Of a stretch of 32,000 bases of DNA, positions 710 through 16,460 are shown one piece after another. The notes under the pieces are model-generated. The model made no database searches. It was given only the letters and a program-made list of their open reading frames with translations, and was not told where the DNA came from. The stretch lies in the NCBI RefSeq assembly GCF_000008565.1, contig NC_001263.1:1612649-1644648 (forward strand), read 5' to 3'. How positions within the stretch are numbered: the stretch's first letter is position 1; every line of letters starts with the position of its first letter. Position numbers and translations under genes: made by a program. Source of the DNA: Deinococcus radiodurans R1 = ATCC 13939 = DSM 20539 (GTDB lineage Bacteria; Deinococcota; Deinococci; Deinococcales; Deinococcaceae).

Positions 710-1679
710 CGAACACGCGGGCGGTGGCGAGCAGGGCGGTGGCGGGCTGCACGTAAGGCCGCGCCTTGTCGGTAAAGGTGCGGTCTTTGACCGACTGCGA
801 GGGCGGCTGCGCCTCGGTCCAGAAGTCGCCCACGTACAGCGCCCGGTCCTTCGTCACGCGGCCCGTGGGATCACAGCTCGGGTCGATGCTGATGAGGTAC
901 ACCCCGTCCATATAACTCCCGACTGGTGCCCCTTCGAGCGCAATCGTGGCGACGCTCTTTTTGCGGGTGCTGGTGTAATTGAGTTGCGCAGAGAGACTGG
1001 TGTACTCGAAAGGGTCTGCGGGAGGCGTGGGCGGGGTCGGCTGGCTCGGCGCCTGGGTTTCGCAGACGTTCAGGTCGAAGTTGGTGTCCGGCGTGAGGGG
1101 CGGCTCCGTGATCGGCGCGTGGAAACTGAAGGAGCCGTTGTACTTCAGGCCACCGCTGACCGAGGCGCACAGAATGCCGTCCAGAGAGCTGGACGCATAG
1201 TTCGTCTGGAGCATCTGGGTCTGGGGCAGCGTGCCGCCTTCCGACGGCGGCCTGAAGCTCAGAATCCGCAGGCCGCTGCTCTTGGCGAGGAAGCGGTCCG
1301 CGGTGCTGAGCTGCACCAGTCCCCCGCCCTCGGCGTAGTGGGGGTAATTGTAGGTCCAAACGGTGTTGGCATAGGCTTCGCCCGGCCCGCGCACCACTTC
1401 CAGACGCACCGTGAGCGTGCCCGTCAGCGAACCGTCGTCCGAGCGCACGGGCAGCGTGATTTCCTTGCTGGCGGTGACGGTTTCGCCCGCCAGCGCCTGG
1501 GCGCGGAGGGGCTGGGCGTCCAAGCGGGCGCGGGCCGCCGTGAGACGGGCACTCTGCGCGGCGGTAGCCCGGGCAGCAGTGGCCTGGGCGGCAGTTTCAG
1601 TGGGGGCGGGGGTCACTTGGCGACCACAGGCGGCGAGCAGCAGCGGGCACAGCAGGGCAGCAAACAGGGGACGTTTCAT
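624..1679 (-). CDS. Hypothetical lipoprotein; its last ~23 codons and stop are supplied by the IS right end (chimeric 3' end)
   Basis: ATG at 1679-1677 is preceded by GGAGGAAG (1681-1688). The N-terminus [18 protein letters not shown] has a lipobox (LAAC). GC3-rich coding runs down to ~696, then the ORF continues into IS sequence ([22 protein letters not shown]). Confidence 0.75.
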
Positions 1680-1749
1680 ACTTCCTCCGAACTCAGGGGG
1701 AGGGAACCGGGCGGCGGACGACCAGGGCAGCGGAGTGGGCCGGGTCACG

Positions 1750-1782
1750 TTAAATAATTCACATTTTAAGCCATTGTTCAAG
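1750..1782. promoter_or_regulatory. AT-rich island in the divergent lipoprotein/gnd intergenic region (candidate promoter/operator)
   Basis: TTAAATAATTCACATTTTAAGCCATTGTTCAAG stands out in an otherwise ~67% GC context. It lies 95-127 nt upstream of gnd and 71-103 nt upstream of the lipoprotein start. No specific site is recognised. Confidence 0.3.
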
Positions 1783-1876
1783 CTCGGCCTTGCGGCGGCT
1801 ATCATGCCCGCACACTGGCCGTGGCCGTCTGGAACCACTCGGCACGGAACCGGTTCCACCGCGCAGGAGGTTGGTT

Positions 1877-4746
<2,870 letters not shown>

Positions 4747-5842: not shown

Positions 5843-5914
5843 GCTGACAGAGGGCCGGTGAGGGCGTATGGTGTTTTGTCCGCCCCACTGTTTTCCCGTT
5901 TTCCTGGAGGTGTC

Positions 5915-8713
5915 ATGCGTTTTCCCGCTCCCCTGTTTTTGACTGCTCTGCTGCTGCTCGGCGTGCCCGCAGCGGCCCAGACTGTTTCCGCCCAGCCCGC
6001 GACGGCTCAGACCCCAGCCACCCAAACCCCAGCGGCTCCGGCAGCCGCCAGTGCCCAGCCCACCCTCCCGGCAGGCGTGCGCTTCGTGACCGAGGTCGAG
6101 GGCATCCGCGAGTACCGGCTGGGCAACGGCCTGCGCGTCCTGCTGTTTCCCGACACGTCTCAGACGACGTTTACCCTCAACACGACTTATCTGGTCGGCA
6201 GCCGCCATGAAAATTACGGCGAAACCGGCATGGCGCACCTGCTCGAGCACATGCTGTTCAAGGGCACGCCGACGAGCGGCAACCTGATGGAGCAGCTCAG
6301 CAAGCGCGGCGCGAGCTTCAACGGGACCACGAGTGACGACCGCACCAACTACTTCGAGACGATGACGAACAGCGGCGACAACCTCGAGTGGGCCATTCGC
6401 ATGGAAGCCGACCGCATGGTGAACTCGCGGGTCAGCGCCGACGACCTGAAAACCGAGATGACGGTGGTCCGCAACGAGTTCGAGTCGGGCGAGAACAACC
6501 CCTTCGGGCTGCTGTACAAGCAGGTGCGCTCGGTGGCCTTCGACTGGCACAACTACGGCAACACCGCCATCGGCAACCGCAGCGACGTGGAAAACGTGCC
6601 GATCGGCAACCTGAAGGCCTTCTACAAGACCTACTACCAGCCCGACAACGCGGTGGTCACGCTGGCCGGCAACTTCGACGAGGGGCAGGCGCTGACGCTC
6701 ATCGCCGACAGCTACGGCAAGGTTCGCCGCCCCTGGCGCACGCTACCCCGGCAGTACACGGAGGAAAACCCGCAGGACGGCGAGCGCAGCCTGACCGTGC
6801 GGCGGGTGGGCGACGCGCAGTACCTCATCGTGGGCTACCACATCCCCAGCGTGCGGCACCCTGACGCAGCGGCGCTGCAAGTGCTCGGGGAGCTCCTAAG
6901 CGACGAGCCTTCCGGGCGGCTATATCAGGCGCTGGTGCAGACCGGGCAGGCGACCGCCGCCGGCAGCATCACCAACCCCGGCAGCGACCCCGGCCTCGCG
7001 ACCTACGTGGCGATTCTCGGCAAGGACGACGACCTGCAAAAAGCCCAGGCCACGTTGCTTTCCACGCTGGAAAACGCCGCCAAGACGCCCTTTACCGAGG
7101 AAGAAGTCGCTCGCGTCCGCACCCGCGTCCTGAGCGGCTACGAGCAGGCCCTGACCAAGCCCGAAGCGGTGGGCGTCGGCCTGTCCGAAGCGATTGCGGC
7201 AGGCGACTGGCGACTGTTTTTCCAGGGGCGCGACGCCATCGAGAAGGTCACCCCCGCCGACGTGCAGCGGGTGGCGGCCACCTACCTCAAGTCCACCAAC
7301 CGCACCCTGGGCGCCTTCATTCCCACCGCGCAGCCTGACCGGGTGGCCGTGCCCGCCGCGCCGAGTGCCGCCGACGTGCTCAGGGACTTCAAGGGCCGCG
7401 CCGCCCAGAGCGCCGGGGAAACGATTGCGCCCGAGCCCGACGCCCTTGAAGCCCGCGTGCTGCGCGAAACGGTGGCGGGGGCGAAGGTCGCCATGCTGCC
7501 CAAGAAAACGCGCGGCGAGCGGATCGAACTGGTCCTGAGCCTCGACTTCGGCAACCCCGAAACGGTCCGCACCGGCAGCGACGCCGCCGACTTCGTGGGG
7601 CCGCTGCTCACCCGTGGCAGCCGCTCGCTGACCCGCCAGCAACTGCATGACCGCCTGGAAGCCGCCAAGTCGCAACTCGACGTGAGCGCGGGTGCGAGCG
7701 GCGCCACCCTGACGCTGAGCACCGACCGCCAGCACCTGCCCGAGGCGCTGGGGCTGCTGCGGCAAGTGCTGCGCGAGCCAGTCTTTCCGCAGGCCGACTT
7801 CGACGAGCTGAAAAAGGCGGCGCTCGACGGCACCGAGGCGGGCCGGGGCGACCCCGAGTCGGTGGCGGGCCTCGCCCTCGGGCGGGCGTTTATGCCAGCG
7901 GACGCCAAGCGCGGTGACCTCGCCTACGTGCCGACCCTCGACGAGAGCCTGCAAGACACCCGCGCCGTCACGCTGGCGCAGGTGCGCGACTACTACGCGA
8001 AGGTGTGGAACGGCGCGAACGCGCAGCTCGGCGTGGTGGGCGACTTCGACCCGCAGACCATCCGTGAGGCGCTGCCCACGCTGCTCGGCGGCTTCGACAG
8101 CGCCGTCAAATACGAGCGGGTCAAGCTGCCGCTGACCACCCCGGCGGCGCAGGACCTCGTGCTGAACGTGCCCGACAAGGCGAACGCCATCTACATCGCC
8201 CAGCTCAACTTCCCGCTGCGCGACGACCACCCCGACGCCGCCGCGCTCGACGTGGCCATGCGGATTTTCGGCGGCGGCACCGACTCGCGCCTCTTTGCCC
8301 GGTTGCGCCAGCAAGACGGCCTGAGCTACACCGTCGGCGGCGGCGCCCACACCAGCAGCCTCGACGAGAAGGGCAGCTTCACGACCTACGCCATCTTCAA
8401 CCCGGTCAACAGCGAGAAGGTCGCTGCCGGGATGCGCGAAGAACTTGCTCGCGCCCTGAAAGAAGGTTTCAGCGCGCAGGAAGTCGCCACCGCGCAGTCG
8501 GCGCTGCTTCAGGAACTGCGGGTGGGCCGCAGCGACGACGCCTCGCTCGCGGGGGCCCTCGCCTCGCAGGCCTACCTGGGCCGCACCTACGCCTTCAGCA
8601 AGCAGTACGAGGAGCGCGTGAAGGCAGTCACGCCGCAGGCCGCAGCAGCGGCGCTCAGGAAGTACGTGAACCCGGCGAACCTGGTGATCGTGCGGGCGGG
8701 GACGTTCAAATAA
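5915..8713 (+). CDS. Secreted M16 (pitrilysin/insulinase) family zinc peptidase, fused double-module form (~932 aa)
   Basis: GGAGG (5906-5910) lies before ATG 5915. Signal-peptide-like [22 protein letters not shown]. Inverted zinc motif HxxEH in [13 protein letters not shown]. The second half resembles the inactive M16 domain pair. Confidence 0.85.
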
Positions 8714-8769
8714 GGCTGAGTGGGGTGGGTTCATTCTCCCACAGCCGATAACTCTCCTCCACCCAGCGC

Positions 8770-8801
8770 ACGCCTCCCCACCACCGGGGGGCGTGTTTTT
8801 T
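8770..8801 (+). terminator. Rho-independent terminator after the M16 peptidase gene
   Basis: ACGCC(T)CCCC / GGGGGGCGT stem (8770-8779 / 8786-8794) followed by TTTTTT (8796-8801). Confidence 0.7.
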
Positions 8802-8875: not shown

Positions 8876-10288
8876 ATGAACCCCAACACCCCCGGCACCG
8901 ACGTTCCCAGCGAGGTCTTACAGGAAACGCAGGCCCGTTTCATTCAGCGCGACCCCGAGCGCGAGGCGTGTCTGGAGCGGCTGAAAACGGGCGGCCCCCT
9001 CGCCGCCGAGTCGCCCGAACGGGTGGAGGCGCGGCTGACCCGGCTGGGCGTGCCGCAGCCCGAGGCGCAGGCACTGGCGCAGGGCGAGGCGGACGTCAAG
9101 AGCGTGGCGCAGCACCTGCCCGAAGACATTCGCCTGACCGCCGAGCGCGTGTTGGGCGCCAACGATCTGGTGGGCGTGGGATATCTCGACCAGGCCCGGT
9201 CATGCTCGCGGGCGGTGTGCCGGGTGGTCATCCGCGACAGCCGGGGCCGCACCCAGGGCTTCGGGACCGGCTGGCTGTGCAGCCCGCAGGTCATGGTGAC
9301 GAACCACCACGTGCTGGAGGACGCCCAGACGGCGCGGCAATCGGTCGTCGAATTCGACTACGAACTGCGACCCGACGGCACCTTGATGGAACGTACCACC
9401 TTCGCACTCGACCCCGAGCGGCTGTTTCTGACCTCGGAAGGGCTGGACTACAGCTTCGTGGCGGTGCAGGGCGACCCGTCGGGCTTCGGCTGGCTGCCGC
9501 TCTACAGCAGCGCCGACAAGAACGTGCTCGGCGAGGCCCTGAGCATCATCCAGCACCCCAGCGGTGAACCCAAGCAAGTCGCGCTGCGCGAGAACCGGCT
9601 GGTGGATCGCCTGCCCGACTTCCTGCATTACGAAACCGACACTGCGCCCGGCAGCAGCGGCAGCCCGGTGTTCAACGACGCCTGGGAAGTGGTGGCGCTG
9701 CACCACAGCGGCGTGCCCCGCCGCAACGCCCAGGGGCAGGTGCTCAAGCGTGATGGCCAGCCCTTGCGCGCGGGCGAGTCGGGCGACCAGATCGACTGGC
9801 TGGCGAACGAAGGCGTGCGCGTCAGCCGCCTGATGGAAGACCTCCAAACCCGCACCGACGCGCAGGGCAAGGCGCTGGTGGAAGACATCCTCTCGCCAGT
9901 GCGCCCGCCGCTCATCGGCAGCCCGCAGGTCAGCCCACGCGGGCCGGTGCTGGCAAGTGGCCCGGTCACGGACGCGCAAGCTGGCAGTCCCCAGACCAAC
10001 TCCAACGAGGCGCAGGCGGCGCGGGTCATTGACCTCGGCACGTTGAGCGCCGGGGCGGACGGGGCGTTGACGATGCCAGTTACGCTGAAGTTTCAGGTGA
10101 GTGCGCCGGAAGCGAAACCTGTGCCTGCACCGACTCCTGAGCCTACTCCCACGCCGGACGACGAGCCGGTGGACTTCCCCACTCCCCAAAATCCGGTCCG
10201 CAGACTCCCGCCCCACAACCCGGCGGCCAGCCTCCTTACCTTCCCGCCGACGACGCGCAGCAGGCCGAGCAGTACTACGCGGGCATGA
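8876..10288 (+). CDS. Trypsin-like (S1/Trypsin_2-type) serine protease with a ~120-aa N-terminal region and a Pro-rich C-terminal tail; no obvious signal peptide
   Basis: Catalytic triad contexts: GTGWLCSPQVMVTNHHVL (His), GLDYSFVAV (Asp), TDTAPGSSGSPVF (Ser). The hydrophilic N-terminus MNPNTPGTDVPSEVLQE has no hydrophobic h-region. The stop overlaps the next ATG (ATGA 10285-10288). Confidence 0.85.
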   Translation: MNPNTPGTDVPSEVLQETQARFIQRDPEREACLERLKTGGPLAAESPERVEARLTRLGVPQPEAQALAQGEADVKSVAQHLPEDIRLTAERVLGANDLVGVGYLDQARSCSRAVCRVVIRDSRGRTQGFGTGWLCSPQVMVTNHHVLEDAQTARQSVVEFDYELRPDGTLMERTTFALDPERLFLTSEGLDYSFVAVQGDPSGFGWLPLYSSADKNVLGEALSIIQHPSGEPKQVALRENRLVDRLPDFLHYETDTAPGSSGSPVFNDAWEVVALHHSGVPRRNAQGQVLKRDGQPLRAGESGDQIDWLANEGVRVSRLMEDLQTRTDAQGKALVEDILSPVRPPLIGSPQVSPRGPVLASGPVTDAQAGSPQTNSNEAQAARVIDLGTLSAGADGALTMPVTLKFQVSAPEAKPVPAPTPEPTPTPDDEPVDFPTPQNPVRRLPPHNPAASLLTFPPTTRSRPSSTTRA

Positions 10289-10992
10289 CGGCGAGCACCC
10301 CGCAGGCGCGGTTTCTGGCACTTTCGGAACTGCTGACGCGCACGCACCGGGCGCAGCCGCGCTACAACCCGGCGAGCGAGGTCTATCCCTGGGTGGACGT
10401 GTGGCCCGACGGCAAGCTGCGGTCCATCTACTCCGCGAGCGAGCATGACCCGCAGGAATTCATCGCCGCCGACCTCGCCGCGCAGGACCGCCGCGAACGG
10501 CTGGCTGCTCAGGAAAGTCTGGACGTGGACACCCTGGAAGACGCGGTGCCCTACAACTGCGAGCACGTGGTGCCCCAGAGCTGGTTCGCCAAGCGCGAGC
10601 CGATGCGCGGCGACCTGCACCACCTCTTTTCCTGCGAGCCGAACTGCAACTCATTCCGGGGCAACACGCCGTACTTCGATTTTCCCGACTACGGCGAGGC
10701 TCTCAGGACCGACTGTGGCAAGCGCGAGCCCGGCGAATTCGAGCCCGCTCACGGCAAGGGCGCCGTCGCCCGCGCCACGCTGTACTTCCTGCTGCGCTAC
10801 CCCGGCGTCATCCGCACCTACAGCGAGCGGCACCTGCACACCCTGCTCGGCTGGCACCGCGCCGACCCGCCCGGCGAGTGGGAACACCACCGCAACGCCG
10901 CCATCTTCGGGCGCCAGGGCAACCGCAATCCGCTGATTGACCACCCAGAGTGGGCTGAGCAGATTGCTTTTGGGGAAGGGCTGGGGCGTTAG
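10285..10992 (+). CDS. Endonuclease I (EndA/Vvn) family nuclease homologue, apparently lacking a signal peptide
   Basis: Family-like motifs NCEHVVPQSWF, GDLHHLFSCEPNCNSFRGN, KGAVARATLYFLLRY and IFGRQGNRNPLIDHPEW. The N-terminus MTASTPQARFLALSELLTRTH is not signal-like. Translationally coupled to the protease gene. Confidence 0.8.
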   Translation: MTASTPQARFLALSELLTRTHRAQPRYNPASEVYPWVDVWPDGKLRSIYSASEHDPQEFIAADLAAQDRRERLAAQESLDVDTLEDAVPYNCEHVVPQSWFAKREPMRGDLHHLFSCEPNCNSFRGNTPYFDFPDYGEALRTDCGKREPGEFEPAHGKGAVARATLYFLLRYPGVIRTYSERHLHTLLGWHRADPPGEWEHHRNAAIFGRQGNRNPLIDHPEWAEQIAFGEGLGR

Positions 10993-11024: not shown

Positions 11025-11063
11025 AAAAAAGCGTCCGGGTCTCTCCCCGGACGTGCTTTTTTT
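11025..11063. terminator. Bidirectional rho-independent terminator between the convergent nuclease and VIT genes
   Basis: AAAAAA GCGTCCGGG tctctc CCCGGACG(T)GC TTTTTTT; the A-run and T-run flank a GC-rich stem. Confidence 0.8.
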
Positions 11064-11082: not shown

Positions 11083-11793
11083 TCAGGCTTTAATCCCAAA
11101 CAGGCTGCCCACCAGAGCGCTCAGGGCCATCGCCGCCGCGCCCCAGAGGGTCACCCGCAGCGCGCCTTTCCAGAGGTTGGCGCCGCCCGCGTAGGCAGCC
11201 AGAGCGCCGAGCACCAACAGAGCAAGCAGAGTCACCACCGTGACACCCACGCTGACCAGGTGGTGAGGGAGCAACACCGCCGCAATCACCGGGATAATGC
11301 CGCCAGTCACGAACGCCAGCGCCGAAGCCAGGGCCGCCTGAAAGGGCCGCGCCCGCAGTTCCTCGGTGATGCCCAGTTCCTCGCGGGCGTGGGTGCCGAG
11401 CGCGTCAGCGGCGGTGAGCTGCTCGGCCACCTGCCGCGCCAGCACCGGGTCTACGCCGCGTGCCACGTAGATGTCGGCGAGTTCCTGCAACTCGAGCTCG
11501 GGTTGCTCGCGCAGTTCGCGCGCTTCCAGGGCGAGGTTGGCGTGTTCGGTGTCGGCCTGCGACTGCACCGAGACGTATTCCCCGGCAGCCATAGAGGTGG
11601 CCCCCGCCACCAGCGCCGCCACGCCCGCGAGCAGGATGGTGCCGGGGGTGACGCCACTGGCCGCCGCCACGCCCACCACGATGCTCGACACCGACACCAC
11701 GCCGTCGTTGGCCCCCAGCACGGCGGCCCGCAGCCAGCCGATGCGCTCGGTGTTGTGTTTCTCGGGGTGGGGAATCAGAGTCGGGCTGGTCAC
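11083..11793 (-). CDS. VIT1/CCC1 family (DUF125) Fe/Mn transporter
   Basis: N-terminal signature HNTERIGWLRAAVLGANDGVVSVSSIVVGVAAA followed by multiple TM segments. GTG start at 11793 with GATAAT 6 nt upstream. Confidence 0.8.
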   Translation of the reverse strand: MTSPTLIPHPEKHNTERIGWLRAAVLGANDGVVSVSSIVVGVAAASGVTPGTILLAGVAALVAGATSMAAGEYVSVQSQADTEHANLALEARELREQPELELQELADIYVARGVDPVLARQVAEQLTAADALGTHAREELGITEELRARPFQAALASALAFVTGGIIPVIAAVLLPHHLVSVGVTVVTLLALLVLGALAAYAGGANLWKGALRVTLWGAAAMALSALVGSLFGIKA

Positions 11794-15623: not shown

Positions 15624-15702
15624 GCGTTGATAGTGGTTGCGGCGCATGGCACGCGGCCCCACATTCCATCTGACGCTGACCTGCCTTCCCTATGCTGAGG
15701 CC

Positions 15703-16370
15703 ATGAGATTTCTGGTGGTTGAGGACGAGCTGGACATTCGTCGCCCGCTGGTCGCCAACCTGCGTGAGGCCGGGTACGCGGTGGACGAGGCGGGCAGCGC
15801 CGCCGAAGCCCGCGAACTGGCCGGGAGTTTTCCTTTCGACGCCCTGATGGTGGATGTCGGGCTGCCCGAGGGGCCGCTGGCAGGCTTCGACCTCGTGCGT
15901 GACCTGCGGGCGGCGGGCAAGGCGAGTCCGGTGCTGTTTCTGACGGCGCGCGACTCGGTGACTGACCGCATCACGGGGCTGGACGCGGGCGGCGACGATT
16001 ACCTCGTCAAGCCCTTTCACCTCGGCGAGGTGCAGGCCCGGCTGCGGGCGCTGGTGCGCCGGGGCCGCGCCGAGGCGCAGAGTGCGCGCAGCTGGCGCGA
16101 CTGCGGCTGGACTGGACAAGCCGCGCCGTGTTCAGGAGCGGCGAGCGGGTGGCGCTGACCGCCAAGGAATTCTCGCTGCTCGAAGTGCTCGCCTCGCATC
16201 CGGGCCGGGTCTACACCCGCGACGAACTGATCGACCGGGTGTGGGACGGGCGCTTCGACGCCGAGTCCAACGTGGTGGACACCTACGTCCGCAACCTGCG
16301 GCGCAAGCTGGGCGACGAGGTGGTGCAGACCATGCGCGGCGTCGGCTACAGTTTTCCCGATGGAGACTGA
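15703..16370 (+). pseudogene. OmpR/PhoB-family response regulator with a frameshift between the receiver and winged-helix domains
   Basis: The receiver (MRFLVVEDELD...DALMVDVGLP...LFLTARD...DDYLVKPF) is in one frame up to ~16083. The DNA-binding domain (LARLRLDWTSRAVFRSGERVALTAKEFSLLEVL...VVDTYVRNLRRKL) is in the -1 frame from ~16090. The switch coincides with GCGCGC at 16084-16089. Confidence 0.85.
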
Positions 16371-16460
16371 CTGGGCGACCAAACGCAGCGTTGACGAAGC
16401 GGCGCGGCGTCCGCCTGCCCCTCTCCCGTCCGGCATTCGCCTCTTTTCCGTCCGTCGCTC

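What the first reader, a model, noticed from the sequence alone, without database searches (positions are those of the whole stretch)
8876..10992. Translationally coupled S1 serine protease + endonuclease-I pair without signal peptides: candidate protease-gated nuclease (conflict/defence-like) module
Seen: a 470-aa trypsin-like protease has a complete His/Asp/Ser triad, a ~120-aa non-catalytic N-terminal region and a Pro-rich tail. Its stop overlaps (ATGA) the start of a 235-aa Endonuclease-I-family protein with intact catalytic-looking motifs (EH, NxxRGN, QGNRNP). Neither N-terminus looks like a Sec/Tat/lipoprotein signal, unlike the neighbouring M16 peptidase, which has a clear one. The pair has its own -10-like element and is closed by a strong bidirectional terminator. 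Established: Endonuclease I enzymes (EndA, Vvn) are normally periplasmic or secreted non-specific nucleases that would be toxic in the cytoplasm. Trypsin-like proteases of this architecture recur as effectors or regulators in prokaryotic conflict systems. Inference: the two may form a two-component system in which proteolysis activates or restrains a non-specific nuclease, for abortive infection, programmed DNA degradation after damage, or nutrient DNA scavenging after non-classical export. I know of no description of this pairing.
Basis: partly seen in the sequence, partly recalled or inferred. Interest (0 to 1): 0.7.

Follow-up and report, generated by a model that had tools for sequence, protein, structure and literature searches.

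The report
One split protease–nuclease fusion gene
The two "coupled" genes are the halves of one 705-residue protease–nuclease fusion gene, cut apart by a single missing base in this Deinococcus radiodurans sequence. The intact gene belongs to a widespread, largely uncharacterised family with no export signals that looks like a self-contained, protease-controlled cell-killing or defence enzyme.

Summary
The ORFs, the ATGA overlap, the catalytic motifs, the absent signal peptides and the flanking terminators are all present. The two-gene reading is wrong. The window is D. radiodurans R1 DR_1599/DR_1600 and lacks one C after position 10196. Four other D. radiodurans assemblies carry that C and encode one 705-aa protein. 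A 2024 strain comparison already lists this as "fusion: DR_1599+DR_1600".

All 88 related loci I held, from about 13 lineages, have one open frame across both domains. The protein has four parts: a novel ~100-aa helical N-terminal region, an S1 protease (H145/D191/S261), a disordered Pro-rich linker, and an Endonuclease I domain (E563-H564, N592).

The N-region plus protease is a constant module. It is also found fused to Endonuclease_NS, lipase, PLD, subtilase or phosphoesterase domains. No partner gene is conserved. A few loci have an adjacent EAD1–trypsin paralogue, which matches the predicted "NucA–trypsin" conflict system of Kaur et al. 2020.

DR1600 has been studied as the competence nuclease "EndA" by authors apparently unaware of the fusion.

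Best reading (about 0.45): a latent cytoplasmic effector whose nuclease is gated by its own protease. It is an Endonuclease I variant of a known, predicted kind. Interest is moderate.

The parts
8768..8796 (+). Terminator-like hairpin plus T-run after the M16 peptidase gene. It separates the fusion gene from the upstream transcription unit.
   Evidence: 11-pair stem, 8 GC pairs, T-run
8876..10992 (+). The real gene (DR_1599+DR_1600, also called KDR_1599m or WP_027479872.1). It encodes 705 aa once the missing C after 10196 is restored.
8876..9211 (+). N-terminal helical region (aa 1-112) with invariant R21, R49, R53, R56, E90 and R91. It is always followed by Trypsin_2 and matches no known family.
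9215..9895 (+). S1/PA-clan trypsin-like protease domain (aa ~114-340). Catalytic codons: H145 at 9308-9310, D191 at 9446-9448, S261 at 9656-9658.
9896..10237 (+). Disordered Pro-rich inter-domain linker (aa ~341-454), read by the first stage as a 'Pro-rich tail'.
   Evidence: (pLDDT <50 for residues 349-386 and 417-451)
10061..10111 (+). Short conserved motif inside the linker. The family consensus is DGxxTWTIPLxVSVRLG; here it reads ADGALTMPVTLKFQVSA. It is also kept in the Endonuclease_NS and lipase versions. Role unknown.
10196..10197 (+). Site of the missing C (DR_1599 c.1321_1322insC in other strains). It causes the frameshift that creates the false stop at 10286-10288.
10285..10288 (+). 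ATGA overlap. The ATG is internal codon Met471 of the fused protein. The TGA is a stop only in the shifted frame.
10238..10992 (+). Endonuclease I domain (fused aa ~455-705). It starts upstream of the annotated ATG with the conserved PY...YY segment. Key codons: C562-E563-H564 at 10558-10566 and C591-N592 at 10645-10650. C562, C587, C591 and C614 are invariant.
11031..11054 (.). Bidirectional terminator-like hairpin shared with the convergent VIT1 gene (11083..11793, - strand).

Best explanation
Shown: 8876-10992 is a single gene for a 705-aa protein. Its order is a helical N-terminal region, an S1 serine protease, a disordered Pro-rich linker, and an Endonuclease I domain. In this sequence (D. 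radiodurans R1, 1999 record) a 1-bp deletion in the linker at codon 441 splits it into DR_1599 and DR_1600.

Shown: the N-region plus protease is a constant module. Elsewhere it carries interchangeable degradative 'warheads': Endonuclease I, Endonuclease_NS, class-3 lipase, PLD, subtilase and metallophosphoesterase. The family has no export signal and no conserved partner gene.

Inferred: the protein is made as a latent cytoplasmic pro-enzyme. On a trigger sensed by, or relayed through, the N-terminal region (or by an EAD1–trypsin paralogue where one is present), the protease cuts in the linker. This frees or activates the non-specific nuclease, which degrades DNA in the cell. That would make it a single-chain, protease-gated suicide or defence effector of the 'NucA–trypsin' type, with Endonuclease I in place of NucA.

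Confidence in the 'one gene, split by a 1-bp deletion' part is about 0.97. Confidence in the mechanistic part is about 0.45.
For: One gene:
- There is exactly one difference (a missing C after 10196) against four other D. radiodurans assemblies.
- The fused 705-aa product is indexed in 243 blocks of the assembly collection (206 contigs by the cluster count).
- PMC11219805 supplement lists '1321_1322insC Val441fs' and 'KDR_1599m 705 aa, fusion: DR_1599+DR_1600'.
- 88/88 loci from about 13 lineages have one open frame of at least 701 codons across both domains.

Active enzymes:
- H145/D191/S261, E563-H564 and N592 are invariant. E563-H564 matches Vvn's EHVVP motif by inspection. N592 falls on the N of Vvn's VNGDRSN, which I equate with Mg-ligand Asn127 from chain numbering and memory.
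- The protease fold matches FAM111A, V8/Esp and DegS.

Intracellular and latent:
- Only 1 of 287 family proteins has even a borderline N-terminal hydrophobic stretch. None has an N-terminal membrane anchor, and 14 have marginally hydrophobic internal windows that I did not examine further.
- SignalP 6 was negative in PMC11784314, though that run used the artificial 235-aa ORF.

Constant module with variable warhead:
- The N-region profile finds 454 cluster representatives.
- 62/62 long representatives carry Trypsin_2.
- Their C-termini are Endonuclease_1, Endonuclease_NS, Lipase_3, PLDc_2, Peptidase_S8, Metallophos or an alpha/beta hydrolase.

Link to the predicted conflict system:
- EAD1+Trypsin_2 paralogues are adjacent in 4 of 88 loci.
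- An Endonuclease I + S8 architecture exists (P0217).
- Rhizobial plasmid 'DNA/RNA non-specific endonuclease' proteins share residues 10-409 of the module. One lies next to SIR2 and ATPase genes.
- All three features match Kaur et al. 2020 System 3.

Accessory-gene behaviour:
- No neighbour is conserved across phyla, and there is almost no flank synteny within 25 Streptomyces or 11 cyanobacteria.
- The family also occurs on plasmids.
Against: - No member of this family, nor of the NucA–trypsin system, has been tested for defence or cell death.
- PADLOC has no matching system.
- The D. radiodurans locus is among housekeeping genes.
- The only genetics (PMC11784314) reports that a DR1600 deletion abolishes natural transformation and sensitises cells to mitomycin C and high-dose gamma rays. 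The authors read this as a periplasmic EndA role.
- No autoinhibition or cleavage site is demonstrated. The AF2 model has low confidence in the linker and in part of the nuclease, with pTM 0.52.
- The N-terminal region has no recognisable sensor or adaptor fold.
- Endonuclease I enzymes are classically extracytoplasmic. The four invariant cysteines could be disulfides, which would argue for an oxidising compartment.
Confidence: 0.45

Rival explanations
1. Exported DNA-processing nuclease. The fusion protein reaches the periplasm or cell surface by a non-classical route, perhaps using the helical N-terminal region. There its Endonuclease I domain converts incoming dsDNA for natural transformation and scavenges extracellular DNA after stress. 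The protease matures it or strips DNA-bound proteins. This is the 'EndA' model of PMC11784314. More generally, the family would be exported degradative exoenzymes.
For: - The DR1600 deletion mutant is reported as non-transformable, about 2 logs more sensitive to mitomycin C, slower to recover after 12 kGy, and unable to profit from added DNA.
- Characterised Endonuclease I enzymes (Vvn, EndA, Dns) are periplasmic or secreted (established knowledge; the solved relatives are all of that type).
- All variable C-terminal domains are macromolecule-degrading hydrolases, as expected of scavenging or predatory exoenzymes.
- Four invariant Cys in the nuclease domain could be disulfides.
Against: - No Sec, Tat, lipoprotein or membrane-anchor signal appears in 287 family proteins from both diderm and monoderm lineages. 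SignalP was negative in the paper itself.
- The mutant was not complemented. Deleting 'DR1600' alone leaves residues 1-470 (N-region, protease, linker), so a truncated, possibly deregulated protease could explain pleiotropic phenotypes.
- Lipase, PLD and subtilase versions of the same module have no role in DNA uptake.
- From established knowledge, the competence nuclease EndA of S. pneumoniae is a membrane-anchored Endonuclease_NS protein, not Endonuclease I, and V. cholerae Dns (Endonuclease I) antagonises transformation.
- No competence genes are linked to the locus.
Confidence: 0.27
2. Polymorphic-toxin-like antibacterial effector. The constant N-terminal part directs delivery to competitors and the protease releases a variable C-terminal toxin domain.
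For: - A constant N-terminal module with swappable C-terminal nuclease, lipase or PLD domains is the architecture of polymorphic toxins with releasing peptidases (Zhang et al. 2012, cited; otherwise from my own knowledge).
- Divergent paralogues with different C-termini lie side by side in Streptomyces L064.
- The family occurs on plasmids.
Against: - No immunity-like ORF is conserved next to the gene in 88 loci, although the nuclease domain itself is 40-50% identical across phyla.
- No secretion-system genes or recognisable trafficking domains are present.
- There is no signal peptide.
Confidence: 0.08
3. In this strain the two ORFs are two working genes, with the nuclease translated by coupling at the ATGA and regulated in trans by the protease.
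For: - The split allele is not confined to the 1999 record. Two independent read-based assemblies carry exactly the same 470+235 split: JGI sample 3300004930 and SRR4046661. It may therefore be a real allele of one laboratory lineage.
- Both domain-coding halves remain intact because the deletion falls in the linker.
Against: - It would be a recent accident, not an evolved architecture. All other D. radiodurans assemblies and all 84 loci from other species are fused.
- The ATG is a non-conserved internal codon, and by eye I see no good Shine-Dalgarno sequence upstream of it.
- A product starting at Met471 would lack the conserved PY...YY start of the domain (Y455 and Y467 invariant, Y468 nearly so).
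Confidence: 0.04

Closest known systems
NucA–trypsin ('System 3') predicted conflict system of Kaur, Burroughs, Iyer & Aravind, eLife 2020 (PMC7159879)
   Same: - A trypsin-like peptidase is fused to, or encoded next to, a non-specific His-Me-finger nuclease.
- A subtilase is sometimes added, and EAD1–trypsin paralogues are sometimes adjacent.
- Deployment of the nuclease is proposed to follow proteolysis.
- Here the same N-region plus protease module is found on Endonuclease_NS proteins, including rhizobial plasmids. An Endonuclease I + S8 form exists. EAD1–trypsin neighbours occur in 4 of 88 loci.
   Different: - The nuclease here is Endonuclease I (PF04231), not NucA/Endonuclease_NS.
- There are no TM segments, and in D. 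radiodurans no multi-copy operon, EAD1 or STAND partner.
- The published system was counted in 45 organisms, mostly alphaproteobacteria. The scan here found at least 585 relatives in species genomes; the best 80, all full-length fusions, span about 13 lineages.
- The helical N-terminal region and the lipase, PLD and phosphoesterase versions are not mentioned in the text I read.
- The published system is itself only a computational prediction.
Endonuclease I family: Vibrio vulnificus Vvn (1OUO/1OUP), V. cholerae and V. salmonicida Endonuclease I, E. coli EndA
   Same: - Pfam Endonuclease_1 scores above its cut-off.
- There is a sequence match to Vvn (E=4e-5).
- Catalytic E-H, the Mg-ligand Asn and the QGNRNP motif are kept.
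   Different: - Those enzymes are ~210-230-aa periplasmic or secreted proteins with signal peptides and, from my own knowledge, disulfide bonds.
- This one is the C-terminal domain of a 705-aa signal-less protein.
- It has a 60-90-aa insertion.
- It has four family-specific invariant Cys next to the catalytic residues, at least three of which fall where Vvn has no Cys (C562 by motif comparison).
D. radiodurans 'EndA (DR1600)' as described in PMC11784314 (Appl Environ Microbiol 2024)
   Same: It is the same locus, and that paper is the only experimental work on it. The deletion is reported to be transformation-deficient and sensitive to MMC and gamma rays.
   Different: - That paper treats DR1600 as a free-standing 235-aa periplasmic nuclease.
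- It never mentions DR1599, a protease or the fusion.
- Its strain, ATCC 13939, carries the fused gene according to PMC11219805.
Protease-controlled effectors in prokaryotic immunity, and polymorphic toxins with releasing peptidases (recalled from my own knowledge, not tested here)
   Same: The shared logic is a latent toxic domain released or activated by a linked protease, with modular swapping of the toxic domain.
   Different: Here the protease and the effector are on one chain. No sensor NTPase, CRISPR, cyclase or immunity partner was found.
FAM111A serine protease domain (8S9K), staphylococcal V8/Esp glutamyl endopeptidases, DegS/HtrA
   Same: They are the best structural matches to the protease domain (Foldseek E=7e-11 to 1e-8, target TM 0.63-0.75).
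   Different: Identity is only 14-20%. This is general PA-clan fold similarity, so no functional inference is justified.

Membership tests
   The split is caused by one missing C. 88/88 other loci have one frame. Met471 is not conserved.
S1/PA-clan trypsin-like serine protease (Pfam Trypsin_2) | Profile match above the curated cut-off | tested here: met
   97.2 bits against a cut-off of 27.6.
S1/PA-clan trypsin-like serine protease (Pfam Trypsin_2) | His/Asp/Ser catalytic triad present and conserved | tested here: met
   H145, D191 and S261 are invariant in 35 sequences.
S1/PA-clan trypsin-like serine protease (Pfam Trypsin_2) | Double beta-barrel fold | tested here: met
   The AF2 model has pLDDT 90-96 in the core. 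Foldseek hits FAM111A, Esp, V8 and DegS.
Endonuclease I (Pfam Endonuclease_1; Vvn/EndA) | Profile match above the curated cut-off | tested here: met
   101-106 bits against a cut-off of 25.
Endonuclease I (Pfam Endonuclease_1; Vvn/EndA) | Catalytic Glu-His and Mg-binding Asn | tested here: met
   E563-H564 sits in CEHVVPQSW, against Vvn EHVVPAW (by inspection). N592 aligns with the N of Vvn's VNGDRSN, which I equate with Asn127. All three are invariant.
Endonuclease I (Pfam Endonuclease_1; Vvn/EndA) | N-terminal signal peptide and periplasmic or secreted location | tested here: not met
   No hydrophobic N-terminus in the fused protein or its relatives. Actual location cannot be tested here.
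Endonuclease I (Pfam Endonuclease_1; Vvn/EndA) | Vvn-type disulfide cysteines | tested here: inconclusive
   C587, C591 and C614 align with non-Cys residues of Vvn in the aligned part, and C562 corresponds to Trp by motif comparison. The N-terminal half was not aligned. Whether the four family Cys bind metal or form disulfides is unknown.
NucA–trypsin conflict system (Kaur et al. 2020, System 3) | Trypsin-like peptidase coupled to a NucA/Endonuclease_NS domain | tested here: not met
   This protein carries Endonuclease_1, not Endonuclease_NS. Paralogous family members with the same N-module do carry Endonuclease_NS.
NucA–trypsin conflict system (Kaur et al. 2020, System 3) | EAD1–trypsin paralogue or multiple trypsin copies in the neighbourhood | tested here: not met
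   None in the window or other D. radiodurans loci. Present in 4-5 of 88 related loci: L033, L038, L082, L085, and L064 as a paralogue.
NucA–trypsin conflict system (Kaur et al. 2020, System 3) | TM segments on the peptidase (in several cases) | tested here: not met
   No N-terminal membrane anchor was detected. A few proteins have marginally hydrophobic internal windows.
NucA–trypsin conflict system (Kaur et al. 2020, System 3) | Anti-invader or cell-death function through proteolytic release of the nuclease | not testable with these tools
   It is only a prediction in the source paper.
Known anti-phage defence systems (PADLOC-DB v2) | Match to a system-specific protein model | tested here: not met
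   Only weak domain-level hits: RT-Protease_XI at 3.8e-6 and PDC-S45 at 5e-4.
Effector-associated domain EAD1 at the N-terminus | Profile similarity of aa 1-112 to EAD1 | tested here: not met
   No Pfam hit at E<=10. hhalign against three EAD1 domains gives probability 0.06%.
Polymorphic toxin system | Cognate immunity gene immediately downstream | tested here: not met
   No conserved flanking ORF of 80 aa or more in 88 loci. The Deinococcus downstream ORF (L014 8155-8715) looks by eye like a DinB-family protein.
Competence nuclease EndA (S. pneumoniae type) | Membrane-anchored Endonuclease_NS-family nuclease | tested here: not met
   It is Endonuclease_1, not Endonuclease_NS. No anchor. No S. 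pneumoniae EndA among PDB sequence hits.
Competence nuclease EndA (S. pneumoniae type) | Required for natural transformation | not testable with these tools
   Reported for the DR1600 deletion in PMC11784314, but without complementation.

The most novel reading that the evidence does not exclude
The helical N-region plus S1 protease is the constant 'trigger' of a very widespread, experimentally untouched class of single-chain, signal-less, protease-gated suicide or defence effectors. At least 585 relatives were found in species genomes, and the 80 examined span about 13 phylum-level lineages, with further copies on plasmids. The warheads are swappable: Endonuclease I, NucA, lipase, PLD, subtilase, phosphoesterase. 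D. radiodurans 'EndA' is one of these effectors. Its reported transformation and DNA-damage phenotypes would then need re-interpretation. The naturally occurring split (window) and fused (ATCC 13939) alleles offer a ready-made genetic test.
Probability: 0.4. Interest if true: 0.7.

Novelty: new variant of a known kind. Interest (0 to 1): 0.5.

Why it matters
1. It corrects a gene model still in use. DR_1599 and DR_1600 are one gene. A 2024 genetic study of 'EndA' deleted only the C-terminal domain of a protease–nuclease fusion, so its phenotypes may reflect a truncated protease rather than loss of a periplasmic nuclease.

2. It extends a small, purely predicted conflict system (45 organisms) to a large family with interchangeable hydrolase domains and a new N-terminal region. 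Its members occur in tractable organisms such as Deinococcus, Streptomyces, Bacillus cereus-group plasmids, Nostoc and rhizobia, so the 'proteolytic release of a nuclease' idea becomes directly testable.

3. A cytoplasmic Endonuclease I is unusual for a family regarded as extracytoplasmic. It raises the question of how self-DNA is protected.

Tried and rejected
- **Programmed frameshift.** Rejected. Other strains simply have one more C. By eye I see no canonical slippery heptamer at 10184-10198.
- **Pure Sanger error.** Not fully accepted. The same split allele appears in JGI 3300004930 and SRR4046661 assemblies, so it may be a real lineage allele.
- **Radiation-response regulation.** No RDRM-like palindrome (a consensus I recalled from memory) occurs anywhere in the window with up to 2 mismatches.
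- **Sigma-70 promoter upstream.**
- **Conserved partner or immunity gene.** All-vs-all clustering of flanking ORFs in 88 loci found none across lineages. The Deinococcus downstream ORF looks like a DinB-family protein.
- **Phage origin.** Only two viral contigs matched, and only in the protease part.
- **NCBIfam.** Nothing near its cut-offs.
- **Kaur et al. supplement.** The one file held contained no D. radiodurans, Endonuclease I or NucA entries. I therefore could not check whether this family was in their data.


Full report
**1. What is in the window**

The window is D. radiodurans R1 chromosome 1, from the 1999 record. The two ORF products are exactly AAF11162.1/WP_010888237.1 (470 aa) and AAF11163.1/WP_010888238.1 (235 aa). 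A published comparison table lists these as DR_1599 and DR_1600.

The following parts of the finding hold:
- The ORFs are 8876..10288 and 10285..10992 on the + strand and overlap in ATGA.
- Pfam assigns Trypsin_2 (aa 130-275, 1.9e-27) and Endonuclease_1 (3.2e-30).
- A terminator-like hairpin follows the upstream M16 peptidase gene (8768-8796). A bidirectional one closes the locus (11031-11054).
- The M16 peptidase has an obvious hydrophobic signal-like N-terminus and the two ORFs do not.

No sigma-70-type promoter was found. No RDRM-like palindrome was found either.

**2. The two ORFs are one gene**

Three observations in the window pointed to a frameshift:
- The Endonuclease_1 match starts only at profile position 18.
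- The nuclease frame is open for about 45 codons upstream of its ATG, with no alternative start.
- Those codons read QTPAPQPGGQPPYLPADDAQQAEQYYAGM.

A homologue search with the 470-aa ORF then returned almost only 640-750-aa proteins carrying both Pfam domains. The closest had 96% identity and 705 aa, and contained that very sequence. The exact 705-aa protein (P0122, ANC71287.1 and others) is D. radiodurans' own and is indexed in 243 blocks of the assembly collection.

Aligning the window gene with four complete D. radiodurans chromosomes gives a single difference in 2117 bases: a C missing after window position 10196. This matches the supplement of PMC11219805, which lists 'DR_1599 1321_1322insC Val441fs' and 'KDR_1599m, 705 aa, fusion: DR_1599+DR_1600'. 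That supplement finds the same 705-aa protein in three further resequenced R1 strains.

The deletion lies in the Pro-rich linker. The last 30 residues of 'DR_1599' are therefore out-of-frame. The ATG of 'DR_1600' is internal codon Met471, which is Val, Ile or Leu in relatives. The ATGA 'coupling' is an accident.

One caveat applies. The split allele is also present in two independent read-derived assemblies, JGI 3300004930 and SRR4046661. It may be a genuine mutation of one laboratory lineage rather than a base-calling error. PMC11219805 favours reference errors but says that resequencing of BAA-816 is still needed. A second 1-bp deficit at window ~16100, in the DR_1605 response regulator, has the same character.

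**3. Anatomy of the real protein**

An AF2 model built on 35 homologues (mean pLDDT 73.7) shows four regions:
- Helices between residues 12 and 111.
- A beta-rich protease core from 114 to 340, with pLDDT up to 96.
- A disordered stretch from about 349 to 451.
- An alpha/beta nuclease domain from 455 to 705, with low confidence at 573-610.

Invariant residues across Deinococcus, cyanobacteria and other relatives include:
- The triad H145, D191 and S261.
- The nuclease residues E563, H564, N592, R595 and N597.
- Four cysteines: C562, C587, C591 and C614.

N592 aligns with the N of Vvn's VNGDRSN, which I equate with the Mg-ligand Asn127. C587, C591 and C614 align with non-cysteine residues of Vvn. 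CEHVVPQSW corresponds to Vvn EHVVPAW by inspection, which places C562 opposite a Trp.

The best structural matches to the protease are the FAM111A protease domain, staphylococcal Esp/V8 and DegS/HtrA. This is generic PA-clan similarity.

A short motif in the linker is conserved even where everything around it is not. Its consensus is DGxxTWTIPLxVSVRLG, at window 10061-10111.

**4. The family**

The best 80 are all full-length. They come from Deinococcus, Cyanobacteria, Nitrospira, Acidobacteriota, Streptomyces (25), Planctomycetota, Myxococcota, Chloroflexota, Acidimicrobiia and Alpha-, Beta- and Gammaproteobacteria, at 37-47% identity outside Deinococcus. All 88 loci I held have one open frame of at least 701 codons over both domains.

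A profile of the N-terminal 105 positions finds 454 cluster representatives among 1.84 billion proteins. All 62 representatives of 380 aa or more contain Trypsin_2. Their other domains vary:

| Other domain | Representatives |
|---|---|
| Endonuclease_1 | 16 (one also carries a subtilase, S8) |
| Endonuclease_NS | 7 (one also has a weak, sub-threshold alpha/beta hydrolase match) |
| Lipase_3 | 2 (plus several) |
| PLDc_2 | 3 |
| Peptidase_S8 alone | 1 |
| Metallophos | 1 |
| Peptidase_C25 (N-terminal) | 1 |

Other observations on the family:
- In Streptomyces L064, two divergent paralogues sit side by side. One carries Endonuclease I and the other a GxSxG-hydrolase-like C-terminus.
- The module also occurs on plasmids of the Bacillus cereus group, rhizobia, Nostoc, Vibrio and Streptomyces.
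- On Rhizobium johnstonii pRlX5, the Endonuclease_NS version is followed by SIR2-family and ATP-binding protein genes.
- Of 287 family proteins, one has a borderline N-terminal hydrophobic stretch and none has an N-terminal membrane anchor.

**5. Context**

Clustering of all flanking ORFs across the 88 loci finds no neighbour conserved between lineages. Synteny is almost absent within 25 Streptomyces and 11 cyanobacteria. It is only partial in Deinococcus, where the downstream ORF looks like a DinB-family protein. Neighbourhoods with called genes differ completely between D. radiodurans, two cyanobacteria and an unidentified genome.

Five loci have a second trypsin paralogue next door. Four of these are EAD1+Trypsin_2.

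**6. Comparison with what is known**

Kaur et al. 2020 (PMC7159879, section 32) predicted a conflict system with these features:
- A trypsin-like peptidase and a NucA (Endonuclease_NS) domain, fused or in multi-copy operons.
- Sometimes an added subtilase.
- Sometimes an EAD1–trypsin paralogue.
- Found in 45 organisms, mostly alphaproteobacteria.
[quoted passage not shown] It also shows the S8 and EAD1 features. I therefore regard it as the same kind of system with a different, and much commoner, nuclease, plus further warheads.

The N-terminal region itself is unassigned. It has no Pfam, PDB-sequence or Foldseek match, and it is not EAD1. PADLOC recognises nothing beyond weak protease-domain similarity.

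**7. The experimental literature on this locus**

PMC11784314 names DR1600 'EndA'. It reports that the deletion mutant cannot be transformed, is about 2 logs more sensitive to mitomycin C, recovers slowly after 12 kGy, and does not benefit from added DNA. It also notes that SignalP 6 finds no signal peptide.

The paper never mentions DR1599, a protease or a fusion. The mutant could not be complemented. The strain used, ATCC 13939, carries the fused gene according to PMC11219805. Deleting 'DR1600' would leave residues 1-470. The phenotypes are therefore real data but ambiguous as to cause.

**8. How it most likely works**

Shown:
- It is one polypeptide.
- Both active sites are intact.
- The two domains are joined by a long disordered linker.
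- There is no export signal.
- The trigger module is constant and the warheads vary.
- There is no conserved partner.
- It has an accessory-gene distribution.

Inferred: it is a latent cytoplasmic pro-enzyme. Its protease cuts the linker, either on its own or after activation by a paralogous EAD1–trypsin. This releases or activates a non-specific nuclease that destroys DNA in the cell, giving a suicide or defence effector. I put this at about 0.45.

The rivals are:
- An exported EndA-like or scavenging enzyme using an unknown export route (about 0.27). This is favoured by the genetics and by the habits of the Endonuclease I family. It is disfavoured by the universal lack of signals and by the lipase, PLD and subtilase versions.
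- A polymorphic toxin (about 0.08), disfavoured because no immunity gene is present.
- Two genuinely separate genes in this strain (about 0.04).

The four invariant cysteines bracket the catalytic residues. They could be a structural metal site, as in many His-Me-finger nucleases, which would suit a reducing cytoplasm. They could instead be disulfides, which would suit export. I could not decide this.

**9. Verdict**

It is wrong in architecture and in its claim of no prior description.

Novelty: a new variant of a known, predicted kind. Interest: 0.5. The value lies in correcting the gene model behind a recent experimental paper, and in exposing a large, testable family of protease–hydrolase fusions.

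Noticed in passing
window ~16100 (gene ~15647-16372, + strand): A second single-C deficit relative to four other D. radiodurans assemblies. It frameshifts a response-regulator gene (Response_reg + Trans_reg_C, 241 aa in L001). PMC11219805 lists it as DR_1605 (pseudogene) 399_400insC.
   Followed up: partly
L093 (JGI 3300004930) and L094 (Logan SRR4046661), gene at 1501-3617: Two independent read-based assemblies carry exactly the window's split 470+235 allele. L094 is identical to the window over 4.4 kb, and L093 has two extra SNPs at window 11177 and 11179. The 1-bp deletion may therefore be a real allele of one laboratory lineage rather than a 1999 sequencing error.
   Followed up: partly
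L064 3205-5265 (-) and 5950-8199 (+) (Streptomyces sp. CC208A): Two divergently oriented paralogues share the N-region plus protease module. One carries Endonuclease I. The other has a C-terminus with a GxSxG (HSLGT) hydrolase-like motif and no Pfam hit.
   Followed up: partly
L038 2816-5959 (+), L033 3-3104 (+), L082 9116-10402 (-), L085 5362-6600 (+): EAD1 (PF19955) + Trypsin_2 proteins are encoded directly next to the Trypsin–Endonuclease I gene in Thermomicrobiales, a deltaproteobacterial MAG and Nannocystis punicea. The Thermomicrobiales ones are about 1,040 aa with Ig-like C-terminal regions.
   Followed up: partly
L091 7935-14548 (Rhizobium johnstonii plasmid pRlX5): The Endonuclease_NS version of the module (784 aa) is followed by two small hypothetical genes and then SIR2-family and ATP-binding protein genes. 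Upstream lie peptidoglycan-binding, DUF3616 and M15 peptidase genes. The neighbourhood looks like a defence island.
   Followed up: no
window 10558-10560, 10633-10635, 10645-10647, 10714-10716 (C562, C587, C591, C614 of the fused protein): Four cysteines are invariant across phyla and sit right next to the catalytic E-H and Asn of the nuclease. Where an alignment to Vvn exists, they fall opposite non-Cys residues. They could be a structural metal site or disulfides.
   Followed up: partly
window 10061-10111: A short conserved motif (consensus DGxxTWTIPLxVSVRLG) lies in the middle of the otherwise disordered, non-conserved linker. It is also present in the Endonuclease_NS and lipase versions. 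AF2 does not place it confidently.
   Followed up: partly
L089 923-1660 and L090 5001-5561 (IMG/VR contigs): Two viral-collection contigs encode relatives of the protease part only (query residues 90-345 and 94-288). No phage copy of the full fusion was found.
   Followed up: no
L014 8155-8715 (+), and the equivalent ORF in L010, L012, L013: In five of eight Deinococcus loci, but not in D. radiodurans, the gene is followed by a ~186-aa ORF. By eye it looks like a DinB-family protein. This is local synteny only.
   Followed up: no
window 5858-8713 (+): The upstream M16 (insulinase-family) peptidase has a clear signal-like N-terminus. Its start is called differently in different assemblies (951 aa against 932 aa).
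   Followed up: no
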